From the human T2T-CHM13v2.0 reference genome, Homo sapiens, in NCBI RefSeq assembly GCF_009914755.1, contig NC_060935.1: a stretch of 64,000 bases of DNA. The stretch is one strand, 5' to 3'. Of the stretch, positions 36,661 through 57,475 are shown piece after piece (positions within the stretch are counted from its first letter, which is position 1; every line of letters starts with the position of its first letter). Position numbers and translations under genes: made by a program. The notes under the pieces are model-generated. The model was given only the letters and a program-made list of their open reading frames with translations. It did not search any database and was not told the DNA's origin.

Positions 36661-38061
36661 TGATTTCCGTGGTTTTTGTCTGAATGGTCACATCTCTTAC
36701 ATGAGCACAGTGCAGCACAGCTGGCTTTGGATTTACACTGAGTGCACCTTCATGTGCTTCTGCACAATTGCCAAGGGAGCACGGACTCACACCTGTGAAC
36801 TGTCCTCATGCCGGCCTTATGCATCCACATGGTGCACCTGGGTGACATTCTCTGTCCCTGCCAAAGGGCACAAGGGACAAGCAGCCTCTTTGGACTTCAC
36901 TTAAATTCCCGGAGCTGGGATGAAAATAAAGTTACATGCTTCAAGATTTTGTAAGCATCAGAGAGGAAACAGAATTGCTTTGCCCAGTGTATACTTCATT
37001 TGTGCTTTAAAATGACGGGCAAAGTCCCCTGGCTGCTGCAGCTTTGCTGATGTTCCAGAGCCTCTGAGAGGAGCTTTGCCACCCTTTGGCACTAGTCAGC
37101 CTTGGGCCAGGGGAATGCTAATGGGTCAGAATGGGCATAAGTATAATGTGTGTGTGCTAAGGGATTGGGGCACCAGATAACCTGCTAGCGCTGCGAGTTT
37201 ATGATTCCTCAGCCTTTACACACATTTTTTTTTAAAACTGTTTTAAGTGTTTGTGCCCCTTAGCATGGCATTAAAGGCCCTAAGCGACCTGGTTCCAGGG
37301 TAGCTTCCTCTTGTGTCCTGCCAAACCCCTGTTGCCCCACCTGTCCAGTCTATGCTCTGCCTTCTGTTTGTCTAGATGGACTTTCTGCTCCTTTCTCCCT
37401 GTACCACTGGGCCAGCTCCTTCTCCTTCATGAGACAATAGCTCCACTATAATAGAACCTTCCCCATTTGAGCAGACCATTGATTTCTCTTTTAATCCCAT
37501 TGCATTTGGTAATCACTTCCCATGCTGTGTCATGATGGTTTGGAGGTGTCCCCCTTCCTCTGGGCTCTGCCTCAGGGGGCCTTATTCATATAGTGGCTTC
37601 CTTTTTTATTGAATGCTTGCTTTGTGCTAGGAGCTGTGCTGAATGCTTTACGTGCATTTCATTTCATCCTCCACGTTTTAGGTGGAATTTGCCTCAGCTC
37701 CACCTAGGAAAAAAGGCTCGTAGATCACCAGAGACAGGCTTGTAGGTTGGGTACCTGGAGCTTGACATCAGATCTGTGTGACTTTAATGCCTCTGCTCTG
37801 TTTCCTCGTTGCATAATCCCTTGTGGACCCTGACCACAGGATCTGTCAACCTAAGCCTCTACGTATCTCTATACCAAGCAAGAACCTTACACAACAAAGC
37901 CCAACAGATGTGAGAACAAATGGATGAATTAAAGAAAAATTTATGTTTTAGATTCCTTGGAAGGAAATTTGCATATTAAATTAGTTTGTTTCGTTTCTTT
38001 TAGCCTTCCATGATAACTAGATTTCATTTTTTGTGCTTCCATTATTGAAATTTGGTTAGTA

Positions 38062-38379
<318 letters not shown>

Positions 38380-38515: not shown

Positions 38516-39535
38516 GGGTAGCTTTCAAAATGTGGCCTGCGAACCCCTAGGGAGTTCCTTGATATCATTTTAATGGGTTGACAAGGTCAAAACTATTTTT
38601 GTTATAATACAAAGACATGATTTGCCTTTTCCATTCTGCTTATATTCACACTGATGGTACAAGAGCAGTGGGATAGAACTGCTTTAGTATGAATCAGAGC
38701 AGTGGCTTTGCTGCTAAAATTCATGCAGTTGAAAAAAAAAGTCCTTCATGAATTTTATTACAACCTAGAGTACACATTGAAAGTGAACACATAAGTTTTA
38801 TCACATCAAGGAAAACAAATGACATTATTTGTTGCCAAAGATAAAATTTGGGCTTTCAAATGAAAATTAGAATACTGGGAAATTTGTGCCTACCTTAGTG
38901 AACTTCTCAGTACTTAAAGACTTTTCTGATGAGATCCACGATGATATTGACAAAATGTAATTTGATATTGTGTTAGAGCAATGGATTTTAATGTAACAGA
39001 GTTGGAAAAATTCATTGATATGGTTTCAGACTCCATATTCCAGCCTACCATTAAGAAACTACTACTGCTTGTTGACTTTTGATATAGTATCAAAGGAAAA
39101 TGACCACTGTTATCTGAGGAGTCTGTCACATAATGTAAAGCAGCACTACCTGTCTCACTAATTTTTTAAAAATACAGGCATGTTTAATTTTTTTAAAAAG
39201 ATGTATATCAACATGTAATTAGCTTATTATTTCTTAAAATGAATGAATATTTTAAAGTTTGCTCAGTTTTAATTTCCAGTACAGAAAATATAGATATAAC
39301 CTGTAGTAAGCAAAAGGTCTTTGAGGTCCTCAATAATTTATTTGGTCCTGTTTGCAGTATCGTACATGATCACCAAACTGCTGCTAGAATGCTCACACCT
39401 GTTACGGCAAATTCAAAACCCAGGAAAGGCGTCTCCTGGGAATTTACTTGAGGTCAGGGTCAGGCTGTCTGGTACATCAATAATTTATTTACGAGTGTAA
39501 AGGGGTCCTGTGATCAAAAAGTTTGAGAGCCACTA
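38516..39535 (+). mobile_element. Charlie1-type (hAT-Charlie) non-autonomous DNA transposon relic
   Basis: 5' end ...ttcaaaatgtggcc...aggtcaaaactatttt; 3' end gtgtaaaggggtcctgtgatcaaaaagtttgagagccacta; both resemble Charlie1 termini. Confidence 0.75.
39344..39476 (-). pseudogene. 5'-truncated retrocopy of the H/ACA scaRNA SCARNA16 (ACA47; miR-6516 hairpin)
   Basis: 133-bp insert between 14-bp direct repeats TCAATAATTTATTT (39330-39343, 39477-39490). Minus strand reads ...TTTGCCGTAACAGGTGTGAGCATTCTAGCAGCAGTTTGGTGATCATGTACGATACTGCAAACAGGA, a hairpin with an ACA box and a pocket (CAGGT / GTAC) complementary to the U1 snRNA 5' end. Confidence 0.82.
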
Positions 39536-55162: not shown

Positions 55163-55741
55163 TGCTAGACTGCATTTGATTATTTACTAGTCTTTCAGAA
55201 CAACTTGATTAATCAAAATCAACTAGTACAATGTTAGCTTACAGTGTATTCATAGCACATGGAGACTCTTTTTCAAAGCTAGGAATTTAAAGTTGAAAGA
55301 AAGAAAAATAATTTCTAATGCACCTTTTCTGCTCAACACAAACTTATTGCAGCATCATTGGGAAGCATCATAGATATTCATCAGTAGAGCGTGTATTAAA
55401 TTATGGTGTATCTGTGCCATAGAATAGTGTGCAGCCACTAGAAAGTGTGGCTGTTCATTATTTCAAATGGCTGTACTTTATAGTACTGAAATTCCATGTT
55501 AGTACTATATGAGTTCTAAGTGGCATAGGTATATATATATGTTTAACGCAAGGTTTTAGAAAAGTTAATATAATGTGCTACTGTTTGTGTGATAAAGGAG
55601 GAATGTATATGCTTGAATACCTAAGTGCTGAATATCTCTGAAAGGACACTTGAGAAATGGATAACATTGGTTACCTTTAGGGAGGTTGGCAAATTTTGGG
55701 GTTCATGCCCATTTTACAGTTTTATTTTTCCCCCGTCTTTA

Positions 55742-56125
<384 letters not shown>

Positions 56126-56650
56126 TTAATCCTGCCACCATAAAGCACCTGAACTGCTTTTCACAGCGAAGTATTCTAAGGTGTCAGCAAAGCGAGGCAG
56201 TGGCAGTTCTTGAAGGTAACACTGCCATGTTGAAAGCTCGATGGGAATTCCAGTGTTCAGAGCCCCTGTGTGCCTGAGGTGTATGGTAGCCCCTCTGCCC
56301 TGGAGACTGGAGCTCAGTTAGACCCAGGGGCCTCTTCAGCCTTGGGAGTTCAGATGCTGATCTCATTTAGGGAAAGACATGCATGATTTCCTGCTGAGCT
56401 GCTCTTTTGTGGAGCCAAATGTTAAACCTTTGAATGTGAGAAAAATGCACACCTGGGTATTTTTGTTTGTTTATGATTTATACCCCATAAAATCCAAAAT
56501 GCAGAATGTGAGGAAAGCTCACTACATTTATGGGTAACATAAAACCGGATAAGTACAAGTTAAAGCAGATTGGAAACCAGTAAAAGGAGCTGTACCCTGA
56601 CTGTTAGTAGCTATTAGAAGCACCTGAGACAAGTTAATTATTGTAGTTGA

Positions 56651-56988
<338 letters not shown>

Positions 56989-57171
56989 GGTTCTCTTTAT
57001 TTGTAGACAGAAAGTAGGAAGTTTTGCCTAAGGAGTTGGACATTTTCCTAATAACCAATTCAAAAAGGAAATTTAAATGTAGATACTTATTTTAAAGTAT
57101 ATGATGACTCAGGTCTTAGTGGTTAGTGCCTGTCAAGGTATAAAAATTAGCCAGTCAGAATCTGCCAAATC

Positions 57172-57475
57172 TGGAGCAATACGGTGCCTCACACCCGTAA
57201 TCTCAGCACTTAGAGTGGCTGAGGTGGGCAGATAACTTGAGGCCAGGAGTTTGAGACCAGCCTGGGTACCAAGGCAAAACCCTGTTACTACTAGAAATAC
57301 AGAAATTAGTTGGGCGTGGTGGCACATGCCTGTAATCTCAGCTACTCAGGAGGCTGAGGCGGGAGAATCCACTGAACCTGGGAGGTGGAGGTTGCAGTGA
57401 GCCTCGCACCAGTGATTCCAGCCTAGACGACAGGGCCAGACCCTGTCTCAAAAAAAAAAAAAAAAAAAAAAAAAA
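57172..57475 (+). mobile_element. Alu (S/J)
   Basis: Diverged dimer with long A-tail. Confidence 0.9.

What the first reader, a model, noticed from the sequence alone, without database searches (positions are those of the whole stretch)
39330..39490. Hidden tailless retrocopy of the U1-guiding scaRNA SCARNA16 (miR-6516 hairpin) inside a Charlie1 transposon
Seen: the 3' end of the Charlie1 relic is split by a 133-bp insert between perfect 14-bp direct repeats (TCAATAATTTATTT). On the minus strand the insert ends in a hairpin, TTTGCCGTAA-CAGGT-...-GTAC-GATACTGCAA, then ACA-GGA-CC. The ACA box lies 14 nt after the start of the 3' pocket strand. CAGGU pairs with U1 nt 7-11 and GUA(C) with U1 nt 2-4, leaving U5/U6 unpaired, which is H/ACA geometry for U1 Psi5. 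Recalled knowledge: SCARNA16/ACA47 is the U1 Psi5 guide and its 3' hairpin is annotated as miR-6516. Inference: L1-mediated retroposition at a T/AAAT site. The copy has no separate poly(A) tail, is 5'-truncated and has no ANANNA H box, so it is probably non-functional as a scaRNA. It may already be annotated as an Rfam-predicted copy.
Basis: partly seen in the sequence, partly recalled or inferred. Interest (0 to 1): 0.8.

Follow-up and report, generated by a model that had tools for sequence, protein, structure and literature searches.

The report
Dead, truncated SCARNA16 retrocopy, already catalogued
This is a broken, reverse-transcribed copy of the small RNA SCARNA16 (the guide for a pseudouridine in U1 snRNA), pasted by the LINE-1 machinery into an old transposon in a TEAD1 intron; it is real but ordinary and has been listed in print since 2006-2007.

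Summary
A 133-bp insert (39344-39476, minus strand) lies between two perfect 14-bp direct repeats (39330-39343 and 39477-39490). Taken alone, the insert matches Rfam SCARNA16 at 130.3 bits over model positions 57-187. It therefore lacks the first 56 nt of the RNA, and it carries 2 nt (CC) of the parental intron at its 3' end. There is no separate A-tail: the duplicated target itself begins AAATAAA. At least nine paralogues of the surrounding old repeat run through the junction with a single copy of the 14-mer and no insert, so the insert is not part of the transposon.

The copy is dead as a scaRNA. It has no 5' hairpin and no H box, two base pairs of its 3' hairpin are broken, and it lies antisense to TEAD1.

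It is not hidden. RefSeq annotates it as LOC124900312. Luo & Li (NAR 2007, Table 1) list it as ACA47f: intronic, chr11, 5'-truncated, without the poly(A) flag. The genome holds the parent on chr17 and five retrocopies, which are the paper's ACA47b-f.

Two points were not confirmed. The name "Charlie1" could not be tested here, and "tailless" cannot be told apart from a 1-3-nt oligo(A) tail hidden in the duplication. RefSeq's span also overshoots the real homology by 41 nt.

The parts
39346..39476 (-). SCARNA16-derived sequence, RNA positions 57-187. It holds the 3' strand of the 5' hairpin, the hinge with a mutated H box, the small middle hairpin, the 3' guide hairpin and ACA-GGA.
   Evidence: Rfam RF00424 on the insert alone: 130.3 bits, E 6.8e-31, model 57-187, flagged 5'-truncated. 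Alignment to the parent L001.
39344..39345 (-). Two bases (CC on the minus strand) beyond the mature 3' end. They match the first two intron bases after SCARNA16 in the chr17 parent.
   Evidence: The parent reads ACAGGA|CCTACG. The copy reads ACAGGACC and then the TSD.
39330..39343 (.). Target-site duplication, the copy on the 3' side of the retrocopy (AAATAAATTATTGA on the minus strand).
   Evidence: perfect 14-mer, 2 matches in the window, 0 of 100 shuffles reach 2.
39477..39490 (.). Target-site duplication, the copy on the 5' side of the retrocopy.
   Evidence: It abuts the first homologous base, 39476.
39491..39535 (.). Terminal 45 bp of the host interspersed repeat, ending in a sharp terminus at 39535. 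This stretch is NOT SCARNA16-derived, although the RefSeq/cmsearch span (to 39517) covers part of it.
   Evidence: 11 paralogues stay conserved up to ...CCACTG and diverge right after it. Right-flank matches are 78-90% identical.
38580..39329 (.). Patchy body of the same old host repeat to the left of the insertion.
   Evidence: Matches to paralogous loci at 70-83% identity from about 38582 to 39343.

Best explanation
This is a LINE-1-mediated retropseudogene of the H/ACA scaRNA SCARNA16 (ACA47). It corresponds to a 5'-truncated Type-1 sno/scaRNA retroposon in Weber's scheme and to entry ACA47f in Luo & Li's catalogue.

Inferred mechanism:
1. A SCARNA16 molecule not yet fully trimmed at its 3' end, still carrying 2 nt of its host intron and possibly 0-3 added A residues, was used as template by the L1 machinery.
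2. L1 endonuclease nicked the A/T-rich target 45 bp inside the end of an old DNA-transposon relic, between ...GT and AAATAAA in the orientation of the insert.
3. The T-rich primer started reverse transcription at or next to the RNA's 3' end.
4. Synthesis stopped at RNA position 57, and the staggered second nick produced the 14-bp duplication.

Since insertion the copy has picked up 9 private substitutions in 131 positions. Three features that a working H/ACA scaRNA needs are missing or damaged: the 5' hairpin, the H box and an intact 3' lower stem. It also lies antisense to its host gene TEAD1. It is therefore a non-functional relic.

Shown here: homology, boundaries, the duplication, the intron-derived CC, the truncation point, the damaged motifs, and the absence of the insert from paralogues. 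Inferred: L1 as the agent, the template being a processing intermediate, and the absence of expression.
For: - Rfam SCARNA16: 118.8 bits in context and 130.3 bits for the insert alone, model 57-187.
- The genome holds 6 matches: the chr17 parent at 224 bits and five copies. These agree in chromosome, and roughly in position (a different assembly), with ACA47b-f in Luo & Li's Table 1. There ACA47f is intronic, chr11:12882940, 91.6%, flagged 5'-truncated and not flagged poly(A).
- The homology ends exactly at the 5'-side TSD (39476|39477) and 2 nt before the other TSD. Those 2 nt equal the parent's intron bases.
- The 14-bp perfect TSD falls in the 13-16-bp peak that Weber reports, and the target resembles his tt|AAAA consensus. 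Paralogues of the host repeat read TT|AAAAA at this place.
- In 10 of the 22 fetched paralogue loci (9 distinct genomic places, since L015 and L027 are the same place) both flanks match, with the two matches overlapping on one copy of the 14-mer. None of the 22 contains the insert.
- Of the other four copies, three carry +1 or more C-bases after ACAGGA. Two have clear A-rich tails with TSDs, and a third has a short A-run with a TSD.
- The copy has no H box and its pocket is weakened.
- The 3' hairpin has 2 broken pairs. The parent folds canonically at -19.1 kcal/mol. The copy's MFE is a different fold at -13.3, and 134 of 200 shuffles fold at least as well.
- PAPD5 oligoadenylation and PARN/TOE1 trimming of sno/scaRNAs are established (PMC10493513, passages).
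Against: - No discrete A-tail is present, which Weber lists as a feature of Type-1 snoRTs and which classical L1 trans-mobilisation normally needs.
- The base just upstream of the TSD is now ...CGT|AAAT rather than TT|AAAA.
- No orthologous empty site could be examined, because no primate genomes are available here. The insertion is therefore dated only by divergence.
- The perfect 14/14 TSD is slightly better than expected for about 7% divergence. About 2 differences would be expected over the 28 sites, with P(0) about 0.13 (my own arithmetic).
- Absence of expression was not tested.
Confidence: 0.93

Rival explanations
1. Truly tail-less priming. The L1 reverse transcriptase started directly on the non-adenylated 3' end (...GGACC) of the scaRNA precursor with no A:T annealing at all. 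This would be a variant of L1 retroposition distinct both from classical A-tail priming and from the internal-priming 'tailless retropseudogene' class.
For: No A residue lies between ...ACAGGACC and the TSD. Luo & Li note a few H/ACA retrogenes without a poly(A) tail and cite tailless retrogenes. Noll et al. argue that an oligo(A) tail is not strictly required.
Against: The TSD starts AAATAAA, so a 1-3-nt oligo(A) tail annealed to the primer would leave exactly the same sequence, and the two cases cannot be distinguished. Short oligo(A) tails on sno/scaRNA precursors are known. The two other copies with the best-preserved 3' ends do have A-rich tails.
Confidence: 0.25
2. Tailless retropseudogene in the sense of Schmitz 2004 and Noll 2015: made by internal priming of the L1 primer on an A-rich, single-stranded internal region of the RNA, which gives a 3'-truncated copy.
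For: No oligo(A) tail, clear TSDs and an A-rich target. Noll et al. count 42 snoRNA-derived tailless elements.
Against: The copy is not 3'-truncated. It reaches model position 187 and goes 2 nt beyond into the intron, whereas that class is defined by at least 10 nt missing at the 3' end (methods passage).
Confidence: 0.03
3. The segment is part of the host transposon's own sequence, or arrived by DNA-level duplication or gene conversion, not by retroposition.
For: None found. The only point in its favour is the missing A-tail.
Against: None of the 22 fetched paralogue loci contains the insert, and in 10 of them (9 distinct places) both flanks match with the two matches overlapping on one copy of the 14-mer. 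The parental flank is limited to 2 nt. The homology boundaries coincide with the TSDs.
Confidence: 0.01
4. The copy retains a function: either a source of a miR-6516-like small RNA with altered sequence, or a one-hairpin guide, transcribed antisense within the TEAD1 intron.
For: The 3' hairpin region is 64 of 67 identical to the parent. The ACA box and the CAGGU pocket strand are intact. Luo & Li report that some antisense or intergenic H/ACA retrogenes are expressed.
Against: The predicted canonical hairpin is lost: the MFE is no better than shuffles and 2 stem pairs are broken. There is no H box and no 5' hairpin. The copy lies on the strand opposite to TEAD1, and per the annotation supplied with the finding the only annotated minus-strand transcript in the window (TEAD1-AS1, 55713-57451) does not overlap it. 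Its divergence (6.9%) lies within the range of its sister pseudogenes (5.3-13%), so there is no sign of constraint.
Confidence: 0.02

Closest known systems
ACA47f in Luo & Li, 'Genome-wide analyses of retrogenes derived from the human box H/ACA snoRNAs' (NAR 2007; PMC1802619, Table 1, row 85), and RefSeq pseudogene LOC124900312
   Same: Same locus: chr11, intronic, 5'-truncated, classed as a retrogene, not flagged as having a poly(A) tail, 91.6% identity. I count 121 of 133 = 91.0% against today's parent. The RefSeq cmsearch span, 39346-39517 on the minus strand, equals my one search hit.
   Different: Nothing biological. The RefSeq span includes 41 nt (39477-39517) of TSD and host repeat that are not SCARNA16-derived, and it omits the 2 intron-derived bases. 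In the passage I saw, the ACA47f row does not carry the paper's antisense flag, although the copy is antisense to TEAD1.
Type-1 sno/scaRNA retroposons (Weber 2006, PLoS Genet; PMC1687206)
   Same: A few bases of the parental downstream intron at the 3' end, a 14-bp TSD and an A-rich L1-type target. The copy derives from an intron-encoded H/ACA scaRNA.
   Different: The 5' end is truncated at position 57 instead of coinciding with the mature 5' end. There is no 5-30-bp A-rich tail. The copy lies antisense in its host intron, so it cannot be processed from the TEAD1 pre-mRNA.
The four sister retrocopies ACA47b-e (L002-L005)
   Same: Same source RNA. All five copies share states at RNA positions 57, 96 and 98 that differ from today's chr17 gene. 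Three of the four carry extra C-bases after ACAGGA.
   Different: The sisters begin at the RNA's 5' end. L002 and L003 have clear A-rich tails (about 29 and 16 nt) and L004 has a short A-run. Only the chr11 copy is 5'-truncated and lacks a tail.
Tailless retropseudogenes (Schmitz 2004; Noll 2015, PMC5322556)
   Same: L1-dependent, flanked by TSDs, no oligo(A) tail.
   Different: That class is 3'-truncated through internal priming. This copy has the full 3' end plus 2 nt of intron.

Membership tests
SCARNA16 (Rfam RF00424), sequence family | Covariance-model score above the gathering cut-off (65 bits) | tested here: met
   118.8 bits in context. 130.3 bits for the insert alone, model 57-187.
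Functional H/ACA scaRNA | Hairpin-hinge-hairpin-tail architecture with both hairpins present | tested here: not met
   Model positions 1-56 are absent. In the full-length alignment that part is forced over the TSD and the host repeat, with an 11-nt gap and many non-standard pairs.
Functional H/ACA scaRNA | H box (ANANNA) in the hinge | tested here: not met
   The parent has AAAGUA. The copy has CAAGUA, and no ANANNA match was found in the 20-nt hinge stretch.
Functional H/ACA scaRNA | ACA box 3 nt from the 3' end and about 14-16 nt from the target position | tested here: met
   ACA-GGA is present, and the ACA begins 14 nt after the first base of the 3' pocket strand. This is a DNA-level statement only; no RNA 3' end was observed.
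Functional H/ACA scaRNA (U1 Psi5 guide) | Bipartite pocket complementary to U1 on both sides of U5/U6, closed by an intact lower stem | tested here: not met
   The 5' strand CAGGU pairs 5 of 5 with nt 7-11. The 3' strand GUAC pairs 3 of 4 (the parent's GUAU pairs 4 of 4). Pairs 127-177 and 133-171 are broken. The canonical fold is no longer the predicted MFE.
Functional H/ACA scaRNA | CAB box in a terminal loop (Cajal-body localisation signal) | not tested
   I did not check it. The motif would have come from recall only.
Functional intronic sno/scaRNA | Sense orientation inside a transcribed host intron | tested here: not met
   The copy is on the minus strand. TEAD1 is on the plus strand, according to the annotation supplied with the finding.
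Type-1 sno/scaRT (Weber 2006) | 5' end coincides with the mature RNA's 5' end | tested here: not met
   The copy starts at RNA position 57. In his Type-3 section Weber mentions truncated versions, ascribed to arrest of the RT.
Type-1 sno/scaRT (Weber 2006) | 0-9 bases of the parental downstream intron after the mature 3' end | tested here: met
   CC equals the first 2 intron bases of the chr17 parent.
Type-1 sno/scaRT (Weber 2006) | A-rich tail of 5-30 bp | tested here: not met
   ACAGGACC is followed directly by the TSD. At most 3 A's could be hidden in the start of the TSD.
Type-1 sno/scaRT (Weber 2006) | TSD of 8-19 bp at an L1-endonuclease-type site (tt|AAAA) | tested here: met
   A 14-bp perfect TSD. 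The site is cgt|AAATAAA, and the paralogue consensus at this place is ctt|AAAAA.
Tailless retropseudogene (Schmitz/Noll) | 3'-truncated at an internal single-stranded A-rich site (internal priming) | tested here: not met
   The 3' end is complete and extended by 2 nt. The class definition comes from PMC5322556, passages.
   40 and 35 genomic matches for the left and right flank, including the locus itself. A sharp terminus at 39535 is shared by 11 paralogues.
   Pfam found nothing relevant in 7 window frames or in 7 paralogue frames. tblastn with frames from 11 genomic hAT-dimerisation-domain loci gave a best E of 0.029, which is noise. DNA comparison gave only Alu-Alu matches. The other terminus is not in the window (1 match only).
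That the terminus looks like a MER1/Charlie-type end is my recall only.
mir-6516 hairpin | Stable stem-loop equivalent to the parent's 3' hairpin | tested here: not met
   The parent folds at -19.1 kcal/mol (z -2.08). The copy folds at -13.3 in a different structure (z +0.53). The canonical structure with the broken pairs opened scores -10.9.

The most novel reading that the evidence does not exclude
The chr11 copy records L1 reverse transcription that started directly on the non-adenylated, 2-nt-extended 3' end of a nuclear scaRNA processing intermediate. That would be a full-3'-end, truly tail-less mode. It would differ from classical A-tail priming and from the internal-priming 'tailless' class, and it would imply that L1 RNPs sample H/ACA precursors in the nucleus before PAPD5/PARN processing.
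Probability: 0.2. Interest if true: 0.25.

Novelty: already known. Interest (0 to 1): 0.08.

Why it matters
It matters little on its own. It is one of five catalogued SCARNA16 retropseudogenes and shows no sign of function. Three small points may be useful:

1. The RefSeq pseudogene span (39346-39517) comes from a forced full-length cmsearch alignment. The real homology is 39344-39476.
2. The copy is a clean textbook case of a 5'-truncated scaRNA retrocopy that keeps 2 nt of parental intron. That fits retroposition of a 3'-processing intermediate.
3. All five retrocopies share states that today's chr17 gene has lost, so together they preserve an older version of SCARNA16.

Tried and rejected
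- Naming the host repeat failed. Pfam on 7 stop-free frames of the window's repeat and on 7 frames from paralogues gave no hAT or other relevant family. A genome search with PF05699 gave 11 loci, but tblastn of their frames against the window repeat and 22 paralogue loci gave 35 HSPs, the best at E 0.029. Two of these weak HSPs (E 0.078 and 0.16) fall at the expected place and strand but are not significant. blastn between those loci and the repeat returned nothing for the window, and only Alu-Alu matches among the 25 top rows printed for the paralogues. The second terminus was not found in the window.
- The weak Rfam SNORA51 match at 39227-39319 (20.8 bits against a cut-off of 50, E 0.59) was rejected as noise in AT-rich repeat.
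- My first energy evaluation of the copy in the canonical structure (-15.7) is invalid because it kept non-standard pairs. It is replaced by -10.9 with those pairs opened.
- In one search my 6-nt register for the 5' pocket strand was one base too long and printed mismatches. The 5-nt reading, CAGGU against U1 nt 7-11, is exact by direct reading of that call's sequences.
ACA47 and SCARNA16 do not occur in his main text.
- An orthologous empty site in primates could not be sought, because no primate genome is held.

Full report
**What is in the sequence**

The plus strand carries TCAATAATTTATTT twice, at 39330-39343 and 39477-39490, perfectly identical. These are the only two matches in the 64-kb window even when one mismatch is allowed, and none of 100 dinucleotide-preserving shuffles gave two. 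Between them lie 133 bp (39344-39476).

Read on the minus strand, the insert ends ...TTTGCCGTAACAGGTGTGAGC...ATCATGTACGATACTGCAAACAGGACC and runs straight into the repeat, which reads AAATAAATTATTGA on that strand.

**What the insert is**

Rfam's SCARNA16 model (RF00424, cut-off 65 bits) matches 39346-39517 on the minus strand at 118.8 bits, E 8.7e-27. This is exactly the span of the RefSeq cmsearch pseudogene LOC124900312.

That full-length alignment is forced at its 5' end. Model positions 1-56 are laid over the repeat and the flanking DNA, with an 11-nt gap and many non-standard pairs. When only the insert is given, the score rises to 130.3 bits (E 6.8e-31). The match then covers model positions 57-187 at maximal posterior probability, and Infernal flags it as 5'-truncated.

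The SCARNA16-derived DNA is therefore 39346-39476. The stretch 39477-39517 belongs to the duplication and to the host repeat.

**Parent and sister copies**

A search of the window's own assembly found six SCARNA16 matches:
- the gene on C17 (224.1 bits, L001);
- two copies on C1 (L002, L003);
- two copies on C2 (L004, L005);
- this one on C11 (L006).

In the alignment with flanks the four sister copies begin at the RNA's 5' end. Only the chr11 copy starts inside the RNA, at position 57.

The parent's genomic sequence reads ACAGGA|CCTACG. The two bases CC between ACAGGA and the duplication in the chr11 copy are therefore the first two bases of the parental intron.

The ends of the sister copies are as follows:

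| Copy | After ACAGGA | Tail | TSD |
|---|---|---|---|
| L002 | one C | A-rich, about 29 nt | 15 bp, 1 mismatch |
| L003 | one C | A16 | about 11-14 bp |
| L004 | C-rich extension | short A-run | 13 bp, 1 mismatch |
| L005 | 3' end decayed | not clear | best repeat only 7 bp |

**The insert is not part of the host repeat**

Both flanks are old dispersed repeats. The left flank has 40 genomic matches, the paralogous ones at 71-82% identity. The right flank has 35, the paralogous ones at 78-90%. Both counts include the locus itself.

I fetched 22 paralogue loci. In 10 of them (9 distinct genomic places, since L015 and L027 are the same place) both flanks match, and the two matches overlap on one copy of the 14-mer. 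None of the 22 contains the insert.

An alignment of 11 paralogues shows conservation up to ...CCACTG and an abrupt loss of similarity after it. This places the element's terminus at window 39535, 45 bp from the insertion.

The same alignment shows that the window's host copy had a private 2-base difference inside the 14-mer, and both duplicated copies carry it. The duplication therefore happened after the host repeat had already diverged. At the nick the paralogues read TT|AAAAA, and the window now reads GT|AAATAAA.

**Mechanism**

The following features fit Weber's description of Type-1 sno/scaRNA retroposons. He reports a TSD peak at 13-16 bp, a tt|AAAA target, 0-9 intron bases, and a template that is a precursor not yet trimmed at its 3' end (PMC1687206, sections 6, 14 and 15 read).
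- a 14-bp duplication;
- an A-rich target;
- homology that stops exactly at one duplication, and 2 nt before the other;
- 2 nt of parental intron.

The truncation at position 57 is what Luo & Li ascribe to premature termination of reverse transcription, seen in 39 of their 202 sequences (PMC1802619, passages).

The one feature that departs from the usual picture is the missing A-tail. Because the duplication begins AAA, a tail of one to three A's annealed to the T-rich primer would leave the same sequence. Short oligo(A) tails added by PAPD5/PAPD7 and removed by PARN/TOE1 are established for snoRNAs and scaRNAs (PMC10493513, passages). I therefore cannot tell 'no tail' from 'very short tail'.

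The copy does not belong to the 'tailless retropseudogene' class of Schmitz and Noll. That class is 3'-truncated through internal priming (PMC5322556, abstract and passages), whereas this copy has a complete and slightly extended 3' end.

**State of the copy**

Against today's parent there are 12 differences in 133 columns, giving 91.0% identity. Three of these (RNA positions 57, 96 and 98) are states shared by all retrocopies, so they are changes on the parent's side. Nine of 131 positions are private to this copy: 6.9%, Jukes-Cantor 0.072. The sisters range from 5.3% to 13%.

With commonly quoted primate neutral rates of about 1-2.2e-9 per site per year (my recollection, not a tool result), this gives an age of tens of millions of years. 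The error is wide because only nine events are counted. The perfect duplication is compatible with this age; my own arithmetic gives about a 0.13 chance of no change in 28 sites.

Functionally:
- The 5' hairpin is gone.
- The H box AAAGUA has become CAAGUA, and no ANANNA remains in the hinge.
- The lower stem of the 3' hairpin has two broken pairs, 127-177 (A to C) and 133-171 (U to C). A third change keeps a G-U pair.
- The parent's 3' hairpin folds canonically at -19.1 kcal/mol. The copy's best fold is a different structure at -13.3, and 134 of 200 shuffles do as well. The canonical structure with the broken pairs opened scores -10.9.

The guide pocket was checked against a U1 gene taken from the same genome, whose 5' end reads AUACUUACCUGG. 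CAGGU is complementary to nt 7-11. The parent's GUAU is complementary to nt 1-4, and the copy's GUAC to nt 2-4 only. U5 and U6 stay unpaired, and the ACA begins 14 nt after the first base of the 3' pocket strand. This is the geometry expected of a U1 Psi5 guide, but in the copy it is a fossil.

The copy lies on the minus strand inside a plus-strand TEAD1 intron (from the annotation supplied with the finding). It therefore cannot be released from the TEAD1 pre-mRNA.

**Comparison with what is known**

- ACA47 as the guide for U1 Psi5 is stated in PMC7960923 (table and text passages).
- hsa-mir-6516 is listed against the SNHG20 intron and the SCARNA16 record in PMC10459839 (one table passage). 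An ACA47-derived small RNA is listed in PMC2730528 (passages).
- The locus itself is row 85 of Table 1 in Luo & Li: ACA47f, intronic, chromosome 11, position 12882940 in an older assembly, 91.6% identity, flagged 5'-truncated, 'Retrogene' without the poly(A) flag.
- Their ACA47b-e sit on chr1 (two) and chr2 (two), matching the sister copies.

The finding is therefore correct but already in print and in RefSeq.

**What I could not confirm**

The name 'Charlie1', and even the superfamily hAT, could not be confirmed. No repeat library is available, and the protein-level and DNA-level attempts gave nothing significant. The other terminus of the element is not in the window. That the terminus looks like a MER1/Charlie-type end is only my recollection.

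I also could not examine primate orthologues, expression data or the papers' supplements.

**Verdict**

This is a real, cleanly delimited, dead retrocopy of SCARNA16, and it is already known. Interest is low.

Noticed in passing
window 39346-39517 (RefSeq LOC124900312): The annotated pseudogene span is the forced full-length cmsearch alignment. 41 nt at its 5' end (39477-39517) are target duplication plus host repeat, and the 2 intron-derived bases at 39344-39345 are left out. The insert alone scores higher (130.3 against 118.8 bits).
   Followed up: yes
L001 (G000:C17:77982158-77982344) against L002-L006: All five retrocopies share bases at RNA positions 57, 96 and 98 that differ from today's chr17 SCARNA16. 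The four full-length ones also share a T at position 2, where the gene has C. The gene has therefore changed since the copies were made, or the copies come from another allele; either way the copies preserve an older state.
   Followed up: partly
L004 (G000:C2:53466793-53466975, minus): This sister copy has an odd C-rich extension of 9 nt after ACAGGA, before a short A-run and its 13-bp TSD. Only the first two C's match the parental intron. The rest may be untemplated.
   Followed up: no
window 39227-39319 (minus): A weak Rfam SNORA51 match (20.8 bits, cut-off 50, E 0.59) inside the AT-rich host repeat. I judged it to be noise.
   Followed up: partly
window 38059-38361: An Alu-like element just left of the host repeat. 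It gave 30-48-fold coverage from Alus in the flanks of the fetched loci and coincides with a masked stretch in the supplied annotation.
   Followed up: no
window 39344-39476, private substitutions: By reading the letters, three of the nine private substitutions create CpG dinucleotides (RNA positions 102, 127 and 171). This is unusual in direction, but with nine events it is not interpretable.
   Followed up: no
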